Both the position numbers and the translations under genes were made by a program. Shown in pieces: positions 36,900 to 42,194 of a stretch of 62,541 nucleotides of DNA. The notes beneath the pieces were generated by a model. The model worked only from the letters and a program-made list of their open reading frames with translations, did not search any database and had not been told where the DNA came from. How positions within the stretch are numbered: position 1 is the first letter of the stretch; the number at the start of each line of letters is the position of its first letter. Source of the stretch: a virus; the UHGV virus genome UHGV-0208829. One strand, written 5' to 3'.

Positions 36900-37463
36900 A
36901 TGGCTAATACGCTATTAGGTAAATCAGGAAAACAACTGGTTTATGAGTTATTAGTAAAAAAGAATCCTGGTTTGGTAGAGAAAGGTATTACAATCGATAA
37001 GTTGAATTTTGGTACACCGTCACATATTCCTGCGGTAGAAACACCAGAAACTCAATTTACACGATTAAATACCCAACTTAGCGTCCAGGGAATTATTGAA
37101 CAGAAAACGTTTGGTAAAATTGACGTTATTTATCGTCGTTTGGATTTAGAGCACCTCTTAGGTGACTTTGTAGTTTCTGTTGCGGGTGTTAATGCGGCTA
37201 CGGTATCTGAGGTACTACAGCTTTTCCGCAATAAGTACAATTTACAGATTACTGACGACGAAGTTGAGAACCCAACAGCTGCACCAGACAGCAAAGATAA
37301 AACCATCATTACCATGAATGGGACATCTTTGGCGTGGACAGGGCGGCTGGAGGTGTACTTAACAGAGCTACCGTCTGACGGTAAGGATATTTCGAAGTTG
37401 ATTAAAGTCACTGAACTTGACGGTTTGACGTATATCTCTTCTGGGATTGTTCCAGGCGCTTAA
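36900..37463 (+). CDS. hypothetical protein (187 aa)
   Basis: ATG with GAGAGGA upstream; terminator after stop. Confidence 0.55.
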   Translation: MANTLLGKSGKQLVYELLVKKNPGLVEKGITIDKLNFGTPSHIPAVETPETQFTRLNTQLSVQGIIEQKTFGKIDVIYRRLDLEHLLGDFVVSVAGVNAATVSEVLQLFRNKYNLQITDDEVENPTAAPDSKDKTIITMNGTSLAWTGRLEVYLTELPSDGKDISKLIKVTELDGLTYISSGIVPGA

Positions 37464-37520
37464 AAAAAGAAAAAAAATAAGAAAGTTAACCTACCTCCGA
37501 AAGGAGGTAGGTACTTTTAT
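37464..37520. terminator. bidirectional intrinsic terminator (copy 2 of duplicated element)
   Basis: A-tract, stem acctacctcc/ggaggtaggt, T-tract; near-identical to 13753-13807. Confidence 0.7.
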
Positions 37521-38354
37521 TTATTTCGCCAGGTCTGCTTCTTTTACAAAGATAGCGTCGGCGTTCAGATAACCTTTACGGTCTTTGATTTCGTGCCAGG
37601 CCAAAGAGAAACAATGACGAATGTCCAGTTTGTAATACAAGGCGATACGAGCAAGATGAGCTAAACCCAGGCTAACGAAATCGAAACCATGATCTTTACC
37701 TTCCATAAAGGTTGTGGCAAAACTTTCAATAGCGTGAAGGTATTGTTGATGTGGGTATCCAGCGTTGTTTAAATTTTCTTCAACTTCAGCTACATCTTCC
37801 ACGCCTAAGCGTAGACCAGACTCGATGCAGTCTTCTGCCACTGTAAGGTGACCAGAATACGCATCCCCTAATTCGATGATGTTTACCAGAACCACCAACG
37901 CATCACCAATACCATCCATGATCAACTCAGGTTTGTTTTTACTGATACCCGCCGCAATTTCACCTAACTCTTCAAAGAACTTCGTGATTTGGGTTTCCAG
38001 TTTACCGTTATCGAGAATACCACGTTCTTTAGACCAACCTTTAACGAGTTTTACACATTTTGCGATCGTGCAAACTAGAACAGATTCTGTATGCATTACC
38101 GTGCCGTTGTAAACAGCATCGGTAAGCTTTATAGGTGCTACAATTGTTTCGATGTCCAGTTCTTGATTACCGGTGTGGCGTTTACCTTCTACACGAATAC
38201 GGTTGGTGCCAGGGTTTACACCAATTGTGTAAATAGCATCGAACTGTACTGCATTCTCATTCAGAGCGCGCAGTTGTGCGTTAACTTCTTCCAGGTGCTG
38301 ACCAGGATTAACTACGATGTTGTAAATAGTGTTGATGTCAAAACGTTCGCCCAT
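37521..38354 (-). CDS. possible MazG-like all-alpha NTP pyrophosphohydrolase
   Basis: EELGEIAAG ... IMDGIGDALVVLVNIIELGD resembles MazG/dimeric dUTPase motifs; track start 38378 is TTG, ATG at 38354 has GGAG upstream. Confidence 0.4.
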   Translation of the reverse strand: MGERFDINTIYNIVVNPGQHLEEVNAQLRALNENAVQFDAIYTIGVNPGTNRIRVEGKRHTGNQELDIETIVAPIKLTDAVYNGTVMHTESVLVCTIAKCVKLVKGWSKERGILDNGKLETQITKFFEELGEIAAGISKNKPELIMDGIGDALVVLVNIIELGDAYSGHLTVAEDCIESGLRLGVEDVAEVEENLNNAGYPHQQYLHAIESFATTFMEGKDHGFDFVSLGLAHLARIALYYKLDIRHCFSLAWHEIKDRKGYLNADAIFVKEADLAK

Positions 38355-38393
38355 TTTAAACTCCATTAGATTAAACAAAAAGAATAAGGATTA

Positions 38394-38414
38394 GGGGTGC
38401 TACATAAGCACCCC
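38394..38414 (-). terminator. intrinsic terminator hairpin
   Basis: Stem ggggtgc/gcacccc, 7-nt loop, minus-strand U-tract. Confidence 0.5.
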
Positions 38415-38422
38415 AGGAACTG

Positions 38423-38785
38423 TTAAATTTTGCAAGCCCCGCCTGAACAGTTATCGTCTTCCGTAGTTGGGTCAGCACCCTTCTCTACGGTAGCTTCCGG
38501 GTCTAAGCCAGGGATTGCAAATTCATCAGTTTCTTTAACGGTTTCTACTTTAACTTCTTCAGACATTTTAGTTCCCAAATTTCTTACAAAGGGGTTAACA
38601 GTTTTGATTTTAAGGTTGGCAAATGGTGATAGTAGCATTGCCAACCGCGGTAGACTTGGCGGTGTCTCTTTATATTGTACAACGCGTACCTTCGACTTAC
38701 CAGGACCCTTACGTACACGGTTGTAGCCAATAAAATATACAGTACCTGTAAAGTATCTAAGGCTGTGAAATCGTGGTTTCTTCAT
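38423..38785 (-). CDS. small basic protein with acidic C-terminus (120 aa), paralog of 38782..38955
   Basis: ATG with AAGGAAG upstream; ATGA overlap with upstream ORF; shared motif R-x-RKGP-x-K. Confidence 0.45.
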   Translation of the reverse strand: MKKPRFHSLRYFTGTVYFIGYNRVRKGPGKSKVRVVQYKETPPSLPRLAMLLSPFANLKIKTVNPFVRNLGTKMSEEVKVETVKETDEFAIPGLDPEATVEKGADPTTEDDNCSGGACKI

Positions 38786-38955
38786 CGCACTTCCTTTTCG
38801 AACGGGTTAGTTTCAAGGAACTTGGAATAATCAAGTTGAATTACTTGGAAACGTTTACGTCCTTTGCGTGGCCCTTTCCGACAACGTGTGGCAATGGTAC
38901 GAAATTTTTTCGGCTCGAAATACGTTATCGTGAAATTAAGAACATCACCCAACAT
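38782..38955 (-). CDS. small basic protein (57 aa), not in ORF track
   Basis: ATG at 38955 with AAGGA 8 nt upstream; translation MLGDVLNFTITYFEPKKFRTIATRCRKGPRKGRKRFQVIQLDYSKFLETNPFEKEVR; stop overlaps next start. Confidence 0.4.
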   Translation of the reverse strand: MLGDVLNFTITYFEPKKFRTIATRCRKGPRKGRKRFQVIQLDYSKFLETNPFEKEVR

Positions 38956-38974
38956 AATTTTTCCTTATCACCAA

Positions 38975-39421
38975 CTAACCCATTAAATGTATTACAACGT
39001 CTTTAGTTACTGAGTTTGCCAGTAAGCGAAAGAACTTCATGTAACGGAAAATGCTAAAGAAAACCCCAGCGTTATCTACAATAACAAGACTGTATTTTTC
39101 TTTTTCTGTACCCATTTGGTAACCGATGATTTGGGTGATATTCTCCGGTAAGTCTTCGAGACCCAAACGGAATATCACATCGTCCTCTAAGAACCCTTTC
39201 GGATTAACGAATAATACCTTCCCTTTATGGTTCTTAGCTAACTCGACAGCAAAGTCTGTAAGTCCTGTCTGTCTGCCTGTACCGTAGCGGAGAGTACGGA
39301 ACTCAGATAAAGCTTTGGCTCCATAACGATCGGTAAACGGATTATCTTTAGAATCCAGATCAGTTAAACCTTTTGATAATTCTTCTACTACGATGTTATA
39401 GTTAACATGAGTTTTAGACAT
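38975..39421 (-). CDS. hypothetical protein (148 aa)
   Basis: ATG start; downstream of thyA. Confidence 0.5.
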   Translation of the reverse strand: MSKTHVNYNIVVEELSKGLTDLDSKDNPFTDRYGAKALSEFRTLRYGTGRQTGLTDFAVELAKNHKGKVLFVNPKGFLEDDVIFRLGLEDLPENITQIIGYQMGTEKEKYSLVIVDNAGVFFSIFRYMKFFRLLANSVTKDVVIHLMG

Positions 39422-39450
39422 TTCATCATTCCTTTTAGTTAAGTGGTAGT

Positions 39451-39747
39451 TTATACCGCGACAGGCGCAGCAATATGTGGTTGTGCTTGATATCCAACCA
39501 ATTCGAAGTCTTCGTATTTATAATCGAAGATAGAATCAGGTTTACGTTTGATAACCAGTTTAGGTAACGGATAAGGTTCACGGGTAAGCTGAAGTTTTGC
39601 TTGCTCCAGATGGTTAGAGTACAAATGGACGTCTACGCCACTGTAAACCAACTCGTCTGGAACCATGTTCAGTTGTTGAGCAACGATGTGTGTTAACAAC
39701 GCGTAAGAGGCGATGTTAAATGGCAAACCTAAGAATACGTCATTACT
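39451..39747 (-). CDS. thyA: thymidylate synthase, exon 2
   Basis: [18 protein letters not shown]...HLYSNH...PHIAAPVAV matches the ThyA C-terminal half; in frame with exon 1 after intron removal. Confidence 0.85.
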
Positions 39748-40831
39748 CATTACGTTCAGATGCGGTCGTTAGTCGCATCCCGCGCCATTACGCGCAGCTG
39801 CATGTCACCATGCAGATCGGACTATATCACCCTCTACAATGTAGAGGCTCTCCCGTTTCGAGAACACTTGTTCCCTACGAACAGTCACGTTCTAGTCTCT
39901 GGGCATTTATCTGACCATTTCCATGTGGCATACTTTGGATTTTTACTGTTTACTCTCCAGAGGACAACGGTTTTGTGTTTACCTAGCTGTCTTCCGGCCT
40001 CTGTAATACTTTCGTATTCGATGCCGTCAATGTTTACTGGTCTGCTGTTTGTGGGCTTGGTACCCATCATGCGTTCGGCAAGTTTACGTTTAGTCTCGTC
40101 AGAATGTTGTCTACCGTAAAAAGGATTTTTCTCTCCAACACGCTGTGAAGCAATGATGGATAACTTTCTACGTGTTTCCTCACTGCGTTTTATCCCGATG
40201 CACGGTGAGGTATTATGTTTATACCATTCTGCTAACTTCTCTCTAATTTTCTTCCTGGTTTCGGGAGTATGCGTGCGACCATACATGCCATTTGCCTTGC
40301 CGAATTTACCGTAAATTTTTTGACGTTCTTCCTTTGTCATTTTTGAGAATCTTCGATAGAGCGAGTTAGTCATTTTTTGAATAATCTCTGCCCTTCTTGG
40401 ATTCCTACTAATGCAGTCGTAACCGCATTCAATGTTAACAAACCCTTTTTCACTACTAATCATTTTCTGTTCGAGCTCTCGCGCCTTCGTTTTAGATGAA
40501 CAAGGCACGATAGTTGGGTTACCGTCGTATCTATATCCTTCATTCCAGATTTTCTGGAGTGTAAAGTTATGATGCGTACCTTTCTCTAACAGATTTAAAT
40601 GAATTTTGATACGCTCGTTGAAATCACGAGTCTCTCCGACGTAGCGAAAACGTTTTTCACCTTTTACGAAAGTAATAATGTAAACAACTGCCATAGGACC
40701 TCCTTTGTTTCATATTAAAAGGTTGTCCTAGAAATGGTTCGAATTTAGCAACGGGTTCTCTCCGTGGAGTTCTTCCCGTTTTAAGGAGAGTTTTTCGACT
40801 AAGGTCACCCTTAGAAGGCGCAGTTATGTTT
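39748..40831 (-). mobile_element. group I self-splicing intron (1084 nt) in thyA
   Basis: Exon 1 ends in U (CGU), intron ends in G (AAUG|AGU); R-like element CAGAGACUAGAAC (39889-39901) and S-like element GAUAUAGUCC (39819-39828) give P7 GACUA/UAGUC; splice restores KLSCFYMMR|SNDVFLGLP. Confidence 0.8.
39885..40694 (-). CDS. intron-encoded GIY-YIG homing endonuclease (I-TevI-like)
   Basis: VYIITF...RYVGET...LEKGTHHNFTLQKIWNEGY matches I-TevI catalytic domain; NUMOD-like repeats; C-terminal HTH-like region; AAGGAGG upstream of ATG. Confidence 0.85.
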   Translation of the reverse strand: MAVVYIITFVKGEKRFRYVGETRDFNERIKIHLNLLEKGTHHNFTLQKIWNEGYRYDGNPTIVPCSSKTKARELEQKMISSEKGFVNIECGYDCISRNPRRAEIIQKMTNSLYRRFSKMTKEERQKIYGKFGKANGMYGRTHTPETRKKIREKLAEWYKHNTSPCIGIKRSEETRRKLSIIASQRVGEKNPFYGRQHSDETKRKLAERMMGTKPTNSRPVNIDGIEYESITEAGRQLGKHKTVVLWRVNSKNPKYATWKWSDKCPETRT

Positions 40832-41569
40832 ACGCATCATGTAAAAACATGAAAGTTTACGACGCGGGATACCTTCACGATCTAAAGTTTCATGAAGTCG
40901 TTCTTCATCATCAATATCTTCGTGATTAATAAGTGGTGCGTTCGCAAATTTTTCCGGTTCATTTGCTTCGTACCAATCCAGTCGCTCAAGCAGTGTCATT
41001 TCTGTAGTGTAGAACTGGAAGTAGTTGTGACACGGATTAAGTGCCATATCGTCCAGGTCACCTACATTCCAGGCACTAACAATAATACGGCGGGAGTCAG
41101 GGTCTTCACGAAGTTGTTGGATAACTTTCCCGATCTGGTCATGTGCTTTTTCATAAACCAAATACGTCGTACCATCTTCCTTCATATTCCCAATATACTT
41201 GTAACCCCGCTGCATTAGTTGTTGCGTACGTCTTACGTCATGACACTCCACAACTTTACAGTCGCGCCATTCGCGCCATTGTTTACCATAAACTGGCCCT
41301 AAGTTCCCCTCTTCATCACTCCATGCATTCCAGATTTTTACCCCGTTCTCTTGCAGGTACTTCACGTTAGTGTCACCGTTTAAGAACCACAACAGTTCAT
41401 GAATGATACTTTTCAGGTGAACCTTTTTCGTAGTAACTAATGGGAAACCTTCTTTCAAGTCAAAACGTAGTTGACGACCAAATACAGAAAGTGTCCCTAC
41501 ACCTGTACGATCTTTCTTAACAACGCCGTTATTCAGAATGTCTTGCATTAACGATAAATACTGTTTCAT
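40832..41569 (-). CDS. thyA: thymidylate synthase, exon 1
   Basis: [74 protein letters not shown]; active-site PCH at 41027-41035; track ORF reads 6 codons into intron before stop. Confidence 0.9.
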
Positions 41570-41886
41570 TTGTTATTACTCCCCATTCGTTTCGTTAGAA
41601 TATCTAAATTGCGCTGCGCTTGCTCAGGGCTAAAAATAATGTTTTCCTGGCTATACGTTACATGAAAATGTTTTTTGTTAACAATGTCAACTTTAAGGCC
41701 ACGAACTTCGAATTGCCGTTTAGCCTCTTCAACCTTTTTTGGTGAGATTCTAAGAAGACCTGGAAATAGTTCGTCTGCGGGAACGTAGTATTTGATTTCC
41801 TTAGTTTCGGGAATTAATTCGATTCTATCTAAACTGACGCTTATAATCTCGTCAATCTTTTTCTTTATATTGTCGTTCACAGTCAT
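41566..41886 (-). CDS. hypothetical protein (106 aa)
   Basis: ATG start; overlaps neighbours by 1-4 nt. Confidence 0.5.
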
Positions 41887-42194
41887 TAGATTTTGTCCTT
41901 TTCGAGTTCAGTTAAAATTTCAAACAGGTCTGCGTTGGACTGCAGTACGATTTCACTGCCCTCTGCTACAACGGTAATTGTTGGCTTCTTACCGCGTAGC
42001 AAGAACTCCCAACGCATTGTTCTTACGTGGCTGTCGAGTAACTGCTTTAATTTGTGGTTAACTTCGACTTCCAATTTGCCCAGTAACTGTGGTGTAATAG
42101 CTTCGCCTGAGTTTTTGTTATAAAGCGTACGCACTAAAGAACGTAAAGAATAACCAATGCACTGCGAAATTGCCCAACCCGAATAGTTTTCCAT
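41886..42194 (-). CDS. hypothetical protein (102 aa)
   Basis: ATG start. Confidence 0.5.
   Translation of the reverse strand: MENYSGWAISQCIGYSLRSLVRTLYNKNSGEAITPQLLGKLEVEVNHKLKQLLDSHVRTMRWEFLLRGKKPTITVVAEGSEIVLQSNADLFEILTELEKDKI

What the first reader, a model, noticed from the sequence alone, without database searches (positions are those of the whole stretch)
38423..38955. Untracked 57-aa ORF and its larger basic paralog, translationally coupled
A 57-aa ORF (38782-38955, minus) with a good SD is missing from the ORF track (below 60 aa). Its TGA overlaps the ATG of the next gene (ATGA). Both products are Lys/Arg-rich and share R(C/V)RKGP(R/G)K..R..Q and NPF blocks; the larger one adds an acidic tail ending in NCSGGACKI. 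They could be small nucleic-acid-binding proteins or internal virion proteins.
Basis: seen in the sequence. Interest (0 to 1): 0.5.

Follow-up and report, generated by a model that had tools for sequence, protein, structure and literature searches.

The report
Free-standing ribonucleotide-reductase tail peptide cassette
The 57-aa ORF is a real but dispensable phage gene, and the larger ORF after it is a fusion of a related basic module with a small conserved peptide that copies the cysteine-bearing end of the host's ribonucleotide reductase, in a phage group whose two fully checked relatives have no reductase of their own.

Summary
The 57-aa ORF (38782-38955, minus) has an AAGGA ribosome-binding site and an ATGA overlap with the next gene. 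It belongs to a family of at least 34 protein clusters found only in this jumbo-phage clade. Its frame is the only one open in all variants (dN/dS 0.2-0.6). It is dispensable: a clean 170-bp deletion removes it in the closest relatives.

Paralogy with the next ORF is weak but likely (E about 1e-3). A relative carries three tandem copies of the same [RK]x[RK]KGPxK module.

The 120-aa ORF is a fusion. Its first 73 aa are the basic module. Its last 47 aa are a separate gene in sister phages, where a poly-A run of different length shifts the frame. These 47 aa are under strong constraint (dN/dS 0-0.15). They are conserved next to mazG in SPN3US-, Erwinia- and CR5-type jumbo phages. They end in DDNCSGGACKI, matching the redox-shuttle tail of class Ia ribonucleotide reductase alpha (E. 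coli DDGCESGACKI).

SPN3US and CR5 encode no NrdA, NrdB, thioredoxin or glutaredoxin. Neisseriaceae carry standalone copies. Two fusions join the tail to nucleotide enzymes. The likely target is the host reductase thiol relay, but this is inferred. I found no published description.

The parts
38782..38955 (-). 57-aa basic ORF (pI 10.3), an accessory gene of a clade-specific family. It is predicted as three beta-strands with an RKGPRKGRKR loop (low-confidence model).
   Evidence: Searches show the ORF and its homologs. One search finds 34 protein clusters of 56-65 aa. One search shows it is the only frame open in all variants. One search gives dN/dS 0.2-0.6. One search gives pLDDT 61.7.
38962..38966 (-). 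Shine-Dalgarno-like AAGGA, 6 nt upstream of the ATG of the 57-aa ORF.
   Evidence: Read directly from the sequence.
38802..38971 (-). 170-bp segment present in the window but cleanly absent in the closest relatives (L004-L008, L058). It holds the ribosome-binding site and the first 51 codons of the 57-aa ORF. The last six codons (FEKEVR*) remain in the deleted relatives and serve as the ribosome-binding site of the next gene.
   Evidence: The DNA alignment defines the indel. Searches show the junction. Searches give the gene maps.
38782..38785 (-). ATGA stop/start overlap that couples the 57-aa ORF to the 120-aa ORF.
   Evidence: One search shows it in the window. One search shows the same overlap in L055-L060, and TGATG in L009-L011.
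38567..38785 (-). Basic 73-aa module (pI 11.4), the N-terminal part of the 120-aa ORF. It is a probable paralog of the 57-aa ORF and is a separate 74-aa gene in some relatives.
   Evidence: One search lists P0009 and P0010, which end in ETKK*. One search shows the split genes. One search aligns the family. Searches give the profile comparisons. One search gives dN/dS 0.2-0.55.
38564..38572 (-). Junction ACT AAA ATG, a poly-A run followed by a conserved internal ATG (M74). Relatives with two more A's split the ORF into 74-aa and 47-aa genes with an ATGA overlap. A variant with an extra Lys (P0006, KKM) implies three more bases; its DNA was not read.
38423..38566 (-). 47-aa acidic peptide (pI 4.05) plus stop codon: the conserved RNR-alpha-tail-like peptide (MSEEVKVETVKETDEFAIPGLDPEATVEKGADPTTEDDNCSGGACKI).
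   Evidence: One search hits PHROGs 14561, 38753 and 24014 at E 1e-14 to 1e-12. Searches show the phage homologs. define the family. One search gives dN/dS 0-0.15. One search finds 69 clusters.
38426..38458 (-). Terminal DDNCSGGACKI, which matches the CX4C-K-I redox-shuttle end of class Ia RNR alpha (E. coli DDGCESGACKI, Cys754/Cys759).
   Evidence: One search gives the E. coli NrdA C-terminus. In one search this is the best NrdA tblastn hit in the window. In one search the family profile hits only RNR alpha C-termini in the PDB. In one search genuine NrdA genes end in EDDGCAGGACKI/L.
38394..38414 (-). GC-rich hairpin followed by a U-rich stretch, just after the tail gene and before mazG. It is a likely terminator or transcript-stabilising element.
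   Evidence: One search gives dG -16.1 kcal/mol and z -3.8. In L004 the same hairpin is followed directly by a T-run.
38975..39421 (-). Upstream neighbour: a 148-aa protein homologous to SPN3US gp033 (PHROG 2586, function unknown). A gene of this kind lies directly upstream of the tail gene in every phage context examined.
   Evidence: establish the homology. Searches show the synteny.
37521..38354 (-). Downstream neighbour: a MazG-type nucleotide pyrophosphohydrolase (277 aa).
   Evidence: One search gives a weak Pfam MazG hit. One search hits phrog_7855 at E 2e-66. Searches show mazG immediately downstream of the tail gene in five other phages.

Best explanation
The region is a cassette of three small coding modules in a jumbo phage related to SPN3US.

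Modules 1 and 2. The 57-aa ORF and residues 1-73 of the 120-aa ORF are diverged tandem paralogs. They belong to a clade-specific family of basic proteins built as strand, [RK]x[RK]KGPxK loop, strand. Related phages carry one to three copies, and the first copy is dispensable.

Module 3. The last 47 residues are a conserved acidic, probably disordered peptide. Its C-terminus copies the thiol-shuttle tail of class Ia ribonucleotide reductase alpha (NrdA). In this window a short poly-A run puts module 3 in frame with module 2. In sister phages module 3 is a separate gene, coupled by an ATGA overlap or starting two bases after the stop.

Inferred mechanism. The authentic NrdA tail is reduced by thioredoxin or glutaredoxin and then re-reduces the active-site disulfide. 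A free copy of that tail should be recognised by the same partners. The two related phages checked in full (SPN3US, CR5) have no NrdA, NrdB, thioredoxin or glutaredoxin, and this window has none either. They do have thymidylate synthase, thymidylate kinase and MazG, and SPN3US also has an annotated dihydrofolate reductase. So the peptide most likely engages the host reductase thiol relay. It could act as an extra electron shuttle in trans. It could also be a handle that ties phage nucleotide enzymes or the basic partner modules to host NrdA. The basic modules are probably co-produced partners or cargo of the acidic tail.

Shown: that the genes are real, the module structure, the conservation, the sequence identity with genuine NrdA tails, and the lack of RNR in SPN3US and CR5.
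Inferred: binding to Trx/Grx/NrdA and the direction of the effect.
For: The genes are real.
- The 57-aa family has 34 clusters.
- Its frame is the only one open in all variants, with dN/dS 0.2-0.6.
- The basic 73-aa module has dN/dS 0.2-0.55 and the tail 0-0.15.

The 120-aa ORF is modular.
- P0009 and P0010 are the basic module alone. P0019 and P0021 are the 47-aa tail alone.
- Split genes are called in L007, L008 and L061.
- The junction differs only in the length of a poly-A run.
- M74 is present in all fused variants shown.

The basic modules are probably paralogs.
- Pairwise E-values are 0.005, 0.001, 3.9e-4 and 2.5e-3, all centred on the same KGP motif.
- L061 has three tandem copies.

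The tail matches the NrdA tail.
- E. coli NrdA ends in DDGCESGACKI.
- The family profile searched against 177,635 PDB sequences hits only class Ia RNR alpha C-termini and the 25-mer R1 peptide 1qfn_B. All matches are anchored at the C-terminal end, E 0.03-0.23.
- Of 28 confirmed loci in a genome scan, 23 are ends of NrdA genes with EDDGCAGGACKI/L. That sequence is identical to some phage peptides.

The context is nucleotide metabolism.
- The gene order td ... gp033-like, tail gene, mazG is kept in SPN3US, SPAsTU, Caitlin, phiEaH2 and Huxley. In CR5 two genes lie between the tail gene and mazG.
- The tail is fused to a 5'-3' deoxyribonucleotidase (P0176) and to a nucleotide pyrophosphohydrolase (P0201).

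Related phages have no reductase.
- The complete SPN3US and CR5 genomes have no NrdA, NrdB, Trx or Grx homolog by tblastn or by annotation.
- The window has none either.

The established role of the C-terminal cysteine pair is stated in PMC4078304 and PMC5704485 (abstracts listed).
Against: - Similarity to NrdA is limited to about 11-21 residues. It is not significant in database-wide searches: no NrdA-length protein reached E<=10 or E<=1e-3.
- There is no experimental or structural evidence that the peptide binds Trx, Grx or NrdA.
- The direction of any effect (stimulation, tethering or inhibition) is unknown.
- N. gonorrhoeae NrdA keeps its own tail, so the standalone Neisseriaceae copies are not simple replacements.
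- In Neisseriaceae the gene has no conserved neighbours.
- The rest of this particular phage's genome, outside the 62.5-kb window, could not be checked for an RNR.
- The evidence for paralogy of the basic modules is weak (hhalign probabilities 12-36%).
- The structure models are of low confidence.
- Each of the two fusion proteins is known from one metagenomic cluster only. P0201 sits on a 1.2-kb contig.
Confidence: 0.55

Rival explanations
1. The tail peptide acts as a decoy or competitive inhibitor, in the manner of yeast Sml1. It would block the NrdA active site or soak up reduced thioredoxin or glutaredoxin. That would lower host dNTP synthesis or disable a Trx-dependent host function, rather than support phage dNTP supply.
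For: This rests on the same mimicry evidence as the main explanation. A free peptide in excess could compete with the tethered tail. From my own knowledge, not tested here: yeast Sml1 inhibits R1 by competing with the R1 C-terminal domain.
Against: SPN3US and CR5 lack any RNR but keep thymidylate synthase, thymidylate kinase and MazG (SPN3US also an annotated dihydrofolate reductase), so they should depend on host RNR output. Fusions to a deoxyribonucleotidase and to an NTP pyrophosphohydrolase fit a docking or coupling role better than pure inhibition. Chromosomal copies in Neisseriaceae would be self-inhibitory.
Confidence: 0.2
2. One reading: both ORFs encode small Lys/Arg-rich nucleic-acid-binding proteins or internal virion proteins, and the acidic tail is only an appendage.
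For: The two modules are strongly basic, with pI 10.3 and 11.4. They carry a Gly-Pro-containing basic loop between predicted beta-strands. Nucleic-acid binding by the basic modules is compatible with the main explanation.
Against: The tail is the most conserved part. It occurs without any basic module in SPN3US-, Erwinia- and CR5-type phages and in Neisseriaceae. The genes lie in a nucleotide-metabolism block, not a structural block. The main text of the one SPN3US virion and essential-gene paper checked does not mention gp233-235. The fold search gave nothing. There is no AT-hook RGRP core.
Confidence: 0.15
3. The tail peptide is a cysteine-containing peptide with an unrelated role, such as a precursor of a modified peptide or a metal- or redox-sensing peptide. 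Its likeness to the NrdA tail would then be convergence or chance.
For: The match to NrdA is short. The layout of an acidic leader followed by a C-terminal Cys pair resembles some precursor peptides. SPN3US and CR5 encode radical-SAM proteins elsewhere in the genome.
Against: In the PDB only RNR alpha tails match the family profile, and the match is anchored at the C-terminal end in both. Some phage peptides share a 12-residue identity with genuine NrdA ends. No maturase gene lies next to the tail gene in the phages or in Neisseriaceae. The neighbours and fusion partners are nucleotide enzymes.
Confidence: 0.07
4. The tail ORF is a decaying remnant of a phage nrdA gene that was lost, and the 57-aa ORF is a chance ORF. 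Neither would be functional.
For: The tail is plausibly derived from an nrdA 3' end. The 57-aa ORF is absent from the closest relatives.
Against: The tail is under strong purifying selection (dN/dS 0-0.15 at dS 0.2-0.4). It is conserved across several phage genera with its own start codon and an extra IPGLDP motif. The exhaustive search finds 69 clusters. The 57-aa ORF is kept open in 34 clusters at dS up to 1.3.
Confidence: 0.03

Closest known systems
C-terminal redox-shuttle tail of class Ia ribonucleotide reductase alpha (E. coli NrdA residues about 737-761, Cys754/Cys759)
   Same: Both sit at the extreme C-terminus and are acidic and flexible. Both have a CX4C pair followed by K-I. DD-x-C-x-x-GACKI is shared with E. 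coli, and EDDGCAGGACKI is identical to the NrdA ends of Rheinheimera and Arsukibacterium.
   Different: Here the tail is a 47-aa gene product on its own, or is fused to a 73-aa basic module. There is no NrdA catalytic body in the window or in the SPN3US and CR5 genomes. It also carries a phage-specific IPGLDP...VE(G/K)G(V/A)D segment that E. coli NrdA lacks.
SPN3US gp032 (gene 234 in the original numbering), CR5_113 and the Erwinia phage homologs (PHROGs 14561, 38753, 24014), all annotated as hypothetical
   Same: They share the conserved C-terminal 30 residues and the same position between the gp033-like gene and mazG.
   Different: Their N-terminal parts are unrelated to the window's. None is preceded by KGP basic modules or fused to one.
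Small disordered protein regulators of RNR such as yeast Sml1 (from my own knowledge; not tested here)
   Same: Both are small, probably disordered proteins that would act at the interface used by the R1 C-terminal tail.
   Different: There is no sequence similarity. Sml1 does not carry the CX4C motif. It is eukaryotic, and its inhibitory role is established by experiment, whereas the effect here is unknown.
Grx1-R1 peptide complex (PDB 1QFN, chain B, a 25-mer of NrdA)
   Same: The family profile aligns with this peptide end to end over its last 15 residues. This shows that a free peptide with this sequence can be bound by glutaredoxin.
   Different: 1QFN is a synthetic fragment of NrdA made for structural work. 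Here the free peptide is genetically encoded.

Membership tests
Class Ia ribonucleotide reductase alpha subunit (NrdA) | Catalytic alpha/beta barrel carrying the active-site cysteines (a body of about 700 aa) | tested here: not met
   The product is 47 aa (120 aa when fused). A tblastn of E. coli NrdA against the window, SPN3US and CR5 finds only the last 15 residues. There is no Pfam hit.
Class Ia ribonucleotide reductase alpha subunit (NrdA) | C-terminal flexible tail with a CX4C pair at the very end of the chain | tested here: met
   The ORF ends in DDNCSGGACKI*, against DDGCESGACKI* in E. coli. The profile hits only RNR alpha ends in the PDB. It is identical to genuine NrdA ends.
Class Ia ribonucleotide reductase alpha subunit (NrdA) | The tail cysteines are reduced by thioredoxin or glutaredoxin and re-reduce the active site | not testable with these tools
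   This needs biochemistry. The only indirect support is that the profile aligns with 1qfn_B, named by its depositors as ribonucleoside-diphosphate reductase 1; from my own knowledge it is the R1 peptide bound to Grx1.
Phage tail-peptide family (PHROG 14561 / 38753 / 24014; SPN3US gp032-like) | Sequence match to the family profiles over the C-terminal 30 residues | tested here: met
   E-values are 1.1e-14, 8.2e-14 and 1.4e-12. tblastn finds 79 phage records. The alignment is A3.
Phage tail-peptide family (PHROG 14561 / 38753 / 24014; SPN3US gp032-like) | Position between the gp033-like gene and mazG, downstream of td | tested here: met
   The window order is td, 148 aa, 57 aa, 120 aa, MazG. 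SPN3US, SPAsTU, Caitlin, phiEaH2 and Huxley have the same order.
Tandem paralogs (57-aa ORF and the basic 73-aa module) | Significant sequence similarity over a common core | tested here: inconclusive
   BLASTP gives E=0.005 over 17 aa. hhalign gives E=0.001 at 21.6% probability. A third paralog in L061 gives E=3.9e-4 and 2.5e-3. All alignments centre on the same [RK]x[RK]KGPxK motif, and the genes are in tandem.
AT-hook type DNA-binding motif | R-G-R-P core flanked by basic residues | tested here: not met
   By inspection the motifs are RKGPRKGRKR and RKGPGKSK. They are basic Gly-Pro loops without the RGRP core.
Precursor of a ribosomally made, modified peptide | A maturase or modifying-enzyme gene next to the precursor gene | tested here: not met
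   The phage neighbours are the gp033-like gene and mazG. The Neisseriaceae neighbours vary and are housekeeping genes.
Translationally coupled gene pair | Stop/start overlap with the ribosome-binding site inside the upstream ORF | tested here: met
   ATGA lies at 38782-38785, and AAGGAA lies within the last codons of the 57-aa ORF. The overlap is kept in L055-L060. Actual coupling of translation was not measured.

The most novel reading that the evidence does not exclude
A previously undescribed class of genetically encoded 'detached enzyme tails'. Jumbo phages without an RNR, and Neisseriaceae, would make a free copy of the NrdA thiol-shuttle tail. This copy would plug into the host Trx/Grx-RNR relay. 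In phage infection it would capture or accelerate the host reductase and couple it physically to phage nucleotide enzymes such as MazG, nucleotidases and td. The KGP basic modules would be clade-specific cargo or adaptors. This would be a new way for a virus to take over dNTP synthesis without encoding a reductase.
Probability: 0.3. Interest if true: 0.85.

Novelty: new variant of a known kind. Interest (0 to 1): 0.66.

Why it matters
Ribonucleotide reductase is the sole de novo source of DNA precursors, and its C-terminal cysteine tail is the entry point for reducing power.

A conserved, separately encoded copy of just that tail is found in jumbo phages, two of which were checked in full and lack any reductase, thioredoxin or glutaredoxin. 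This suggests an unrecognised way to manipulate or harness the host enzyme. The same peptide occurs on its own in Neisseriaceae and is fused to two nucleotide-metabolising enzymes. It may therefore be a general docking or redox module.

The hypothesis can be tested directly with a synthetic 47-mer and standard RNR, Trx and Grx assays.

For annotation, the work shows three things. A sub-60-aa ORF here is real. A '120-aa hypothetical protein' is two genes fused by a change in poly-A length. Three PHROG families of unknown function can be given a specific, testable label.

Tried and rejected
Searches that found nothing:
- A megablast of the locus against the phage collection gave no match. The phage is not in that collection.
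- Pfam and NCBIfam gave no hit for either small protein or for the 148-aa neighbour.
- phmmer of the 120-aa ORF and of a Neisseria peptide against the PDB gave nothing useful. Only the family profile found the RNR tails.
- The basic modules have no relatives outside this phage clade.

Structure:
- The AlphaFold2 models were of low confidence (pLDDT 61.7 for the 57-aa protein, 37.8 for the 120-aa protein).
- Foldseek of the 57-aa model against the PDB gave no hit below E=2. No fold assignment was made.

RNA and signals:
- Rfam at the gathering threshold found nothing in 37000-42000.
- The consensus promoter and terminator scan did not flag the hairpin after the tail gene. Folding did.

Literature:
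- Searches for a described free-standing RNR tail peptide found none.
- SPN3US 'gp234' returned only an unrelated paper.
- The search for 'GACKI' returned only a surname.
- The jumbo-phage comparative paper and the SPN3US essential-gene paper do not mention the gene.

Hypotheses rejected:
- Split NrdA was rejected for SPN3US and CR5, because their genomes have no NrdA body.
- A replacement of a missing tail in Neisseria was rejected, because N. gonorrhoeae NrdA (7MDI) has its own tail.
- A modified-peptide precursor was judged unlikely, because no maturase is adjacent.
- P0201 shows no clear BLASTP similarity to the window's MazG. Its pyrophosphohydrolase assignment rests on PHROG 671.
Full report
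1. THE OBSERVATION

On the minus strand, a 57-aa ORF runs from ATG at 38955 to TGA at 38782-38784. An AAGGA lies 6 nt upstream of the start. The TGA overlaps the ATG of a 120-aa ORF (38423-38785) as ATGA. The 57-aa product is basic (pI 10.3). Residues 1-73 of the larger ORF are more basic still (pI 11.4). Its last 47 residues are acidic (pI 4.05) and end in NCSGGACKI.

The shared RxRKGPxK block exists. BLASTP aligns 17 residues at E=0.005. A comparison of family profiles aligns 27 columns at E=0.001 with 21.6% probability. The 'NPF' block is not conserved within either family, so it is not a shared feature.

2. WHERE THE WINDOW COMES FROM

The locus has no near-identical match in the phage collection. 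The protein-level gene order matches Salmonella phage SPN3US and its Erwinia and Cronobacter relatives. That order is thymidylate synthase, a gp033-like protein of about 150 aa, a small gene, MazG, then convergent virion genes. A conserved 723-aa virion protein is 67-68% identical to those phages, and there are weaker hits to Pseudomonas jumbo phages. Close relatives sit on metagenomic contigs of up to about 228 kb, and one source labels its copy Salmonella enterica.

3. THE 57-AA ORF IS A REAL, DISPENSABLE GENE

Homologs of 56-65 aa occur in at least 34 protein clusters, all from this phage clade. Many were called as genes by the source pipelines.

Six variants were compared at the DNA level. 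The proposed frame is the only one of six with no stop codon in all of them. Pairwise dN/dS is 0.2-0.6 at dS up to 1.3. The invariant residues are the YF.P motif, the KGP.KGRK loop and Q, I, S, F further on. The stop/start overlap with the next gene is kept: ATGA in most, TGATG in L009-L011.

The gene is missing from the closest relatives (L004-L008, L058). There a clean 170-bp deletion, equal to window 38802-38971, joins the stop region of the 148-aa gene to the last six codons of the small ORF. Those codons still supply the AAGGAA ribosome-binding site of the next gene. The remnant shows that the gene was lost there rather than gained here.

4. THE 120-AA ORF IS A FUSION OF TWO MODULES

- Some database relatives are the first 74 residues alone, ending in ETKK* (P0009, P0010). 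Others are the last 47 residues alone (P0019, P0021).
- In L007 and L008 the two parts are called as separate genes that overlap by ATGA. In L061 the tail gene starts two bases after the stop of the basic gene.
- The junction differs only in a poly-A run. It reads ctaaaATG in fused forms and ctaaaaaATG in split forms. A variant with an extra Lys (P0006, KKM) implies a third length.
- The internal ATG (M74) is present in every fused variant shown.
- The two halves evolve differently. dN/dS is 0.2-0.55 for the basic part and 0-0.15 for the tail.
- They also have different histories. Between the window and L004, dS is 0.019 in the basic part and 0.27 in the tail.

5. THE BASIC MODULES FORM A TANDEM FAMILY

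L061 carries three small basic genes in a row before the tail gene:
- a 56/61-aa protein with SRIKKGPRKHQTKK;
- a 65-aa member of the 57-aa family;
- a 71-aa homolog of the 73-aa module (hhalign 97%, E=1e-10).

The cross-family comparisons all centre on the same [RK]x[RK]KGPxK loop, at E=3.9e-4 and 2.5e-3. Together with the tandem arrangement, this makes paralogy likely, though no single comparison is strong.

The AlphaFold2 models are of low confidence (pLDDT 61.7 and 37.8). They only suggest strand, strand, basic loop, strand. A Foldseek search found nothing. The modules have no relatives outside this clade.

6. THE TAIL PEPTIDE

The last 30 residues match three PHROG families of unknown function, at E 1e-14 to 1e-12. 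They also match small hypothetical proteins in 79 jumbo-phage records. Examples are SPN3US gp032 (62 aa), CR5_113 (78 aa), and Erwinia phage proteins of 51-54 aa.

An alignment of 39 members has invariant G, D, C, G, A, C and K. The consensus is IPGLDP.A.VEGGVD...EDDNC.GGACKI.

An exhaustive profile search of 1.84 billion representative proteins found 69 clusters. Nearly all are 38-120 aa long, and the match nearly always lies at the C-terminal end.

7. THE LIKENESS TO RIBONUCLEOTIDE REDUCTASE

- E. coli NrdA ends in ...VPSIQDDGCESGACKI. This is the tail that carries the redox-active Cys754 and Cys759 (residue numbering from my own knowledge).
- The best tblastn match of full-length NrdA in the window is this 15-residue end against the end of the ORF.
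- The family profile was searched against all 177,635 distinct PDB sequences. It hit only class Ia RNR alpha subunits: E. coli NrdA, 7MDI (N. gonorrhoeae NrdA) and 8VHP.
- It also hit 1qfn_B, a 25-residue chain named ribonucleoside-diphosphate reductase 1. From my own knowledge this is the R1 peptide in complex with glutaredoxin-1.
- Every alignment is anchored at the C-terminal end of both partners (E 0.03-0.23).
- A scan of one genome per species for [DPE][NG]CxGGACK[IL] returned 28 confirmed loci. Of these, 23 are the ends of NrdA genes of about 760-800 aa, in Thiomicrospira, Hydrogenovibrio, Rheinheimera and Arsukibacterium. They read ...TRDGADD..EDDGCAGGACKL* or ...EDIKPEAEDDGCAGGACKI*.
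- The other five loci are standalone small ORFs in Neisseriaceae.
- Several phage peptides end in exactly EDDGCAGGACKI.

The similarity is too short to be significant in database-wide searches. It is nonetheless specific, it is anchored by position, and it covers a known functional motif.

8. CONTEXT

- The complete genomes of SPN3US (240 kb) and CR5 (224 kb) contain no NrdA, NrdB, thioredoxin or glutaredoxin, by annotation or by tblastn.
- Both do encode thymidylate synthase, thymidylate kinase, MazG and an HD-domain protein. SPN3US also has an annotated dihydrofolate reductase.
- The tail gene lies immediately upstream of mazG in the window and in five of six other phages examined.
- Two longer family members are fusions. 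P0176 is a 5'-3' deoxyribonucleotidase (phrog_2643, E=3e-15) plus the tail. P0201 is a nucleotide pyrophosphohydrolase (phrog_671, E=2e-30) plus the tail.
- In Neisseriaceae the peptide gene is chromosomal, with variable neighbours that do not include nrdAB.
- At least one Neisseria NrdA keeps its own tail.

9. INTERPRETATION

What is shown:
- The genes are real.
- The region has three modules.
- The poly-A run varies between fused and split forms.
- The tail is under strong constraint.
- The tail is identical to genuine NrdA ends.
- It is associated with nucleotide enzymes.
- The two relatives checked in full have no RNR.

What is inferred: the peptide is recognised by the partners of the authentic tail, namely reduced thioredoxin or glutaredoxin and the NrdA active site. 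PMC4078304 and PMC5704485 describe this relay (abstracts listed). On this reading, the peptide links the phage's nucleotide metabolism to the host reductase.

I cannot tell whether the peptide speeds re-reduction, tethers other proteins to NrdA, or inhibits. I favour coupling or stimulation, for two reasons. These phages appear to depend on host RNR. The known fusions attach the tail to enzymes that would gain from being close to RNR.

The basic modules are made from the same message and are coupled or fused to the acidic tail. They are most simply read as partners or cargo. Nucleic-acid binding is possible but untested.

10. NOVELTY

The literature searches available here found no description of a free-standing RNR tail peptide. 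All database names are 'hypothetical protein'. I rate it a new variant of a known kind: a detached module of the RNR thiol relay. If host-RNR capture is demonstrated, it would be a new takeover mechanism.

Noticed in passing
window 39451-41569 (minus strand); L004 8591-8823: The thymidylate synthase gene is split into a 252-aa part (40811-41569) and a 99-aa part (39451-39750). Between them lies an ORF (39885-40694, 269 aa) whose same-sized counterpart at the same position in relative L058 carries Pfam hits to GIY-YIG (weak), NUMOD3 and I-TevI_DNA-bd (weak). This looks like a T4 td/I-TevI-type group I intron. Relative L004 has the intron without the endonuclease (Rfam RF00028, 63.8 bits). L005 and L006 have an uninterrupted 344-aa td. 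Rfam at the gathering threshold did not detect the intron in the window itself.
   Followed up: partly
window 38975-39750 and the matching stretch in L004-L011, L055-L061: The stretch between td and the small-gene cassette varies widely among close relatives. Genes of 98, 129 and 148 aa come and go in different combinations, as does the number of KGP basic modules.
   Followed up: partly
window 38423-38785 compared with L004 10001-10363: There is a sharp change in divergence inside one ORF. Synonymous divergence is 0.019 in the basic module and 0.27 in the tail. This suggests a recombination breakpoint at or near the module junction.
   Followed up: no
window 38975-39421 (minus strand): The conserved 148-aa neighbour (SPN3US gp033-like, PHROG 2586) has a GTGRQTGLT segment and a VIVDNAG segment. 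By eye these look like a degenerate terminase-type Walker A without the lysine, and a Walker B. There is no Pfam or NCBIfam hit.
   Followed up: no
window 37489-37512: A perfect 10-bp GC-rich hairpin with T-runs on both strands lies between the convergent mazG and virion-protein genes. It is a likely bidirectional terminator.
   Followed up: no
L021-L030, L052 (Neisseria, Alysiella, Simonsiella, Eikenella, Kingella chromosomes): Standalone genes of 40-56 aa encode ..DFDLDNLDDLL.FDGV.VEGGVDA..EDDNCAGGACKI. This is the same RNR-tail-like peptide, found in bacterial chromosomes with variable neighbours (AhpC/Redoxin, YfbR-like HD, HxlR, MnmG). Their function is unknown.
   Followed up: partly
P0163 (89 aa) and P0011 (78 aa), metagenomic proteins: P0163 joins the first 50 residues of a NifU/IscU-type domain (Pfam NifU_N, E=1e-18) to the tail peptide. 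It may be an assembly or gene-calling chimera. P0011 is a frameshifted allele of the phage tail gene that loses the second cysteine and the KI end.
   Followed up: no
L007 3205-3225 and L008 (ACTAAAAAATGA junction): In the split variants the upstream ORF ends in AAA AAA TGA on a run of six A's. This is a slippery context in which -1 ribosomal or transcriptional slippage could re-create the fused protein. This is pure speculation.
   Followed up: no
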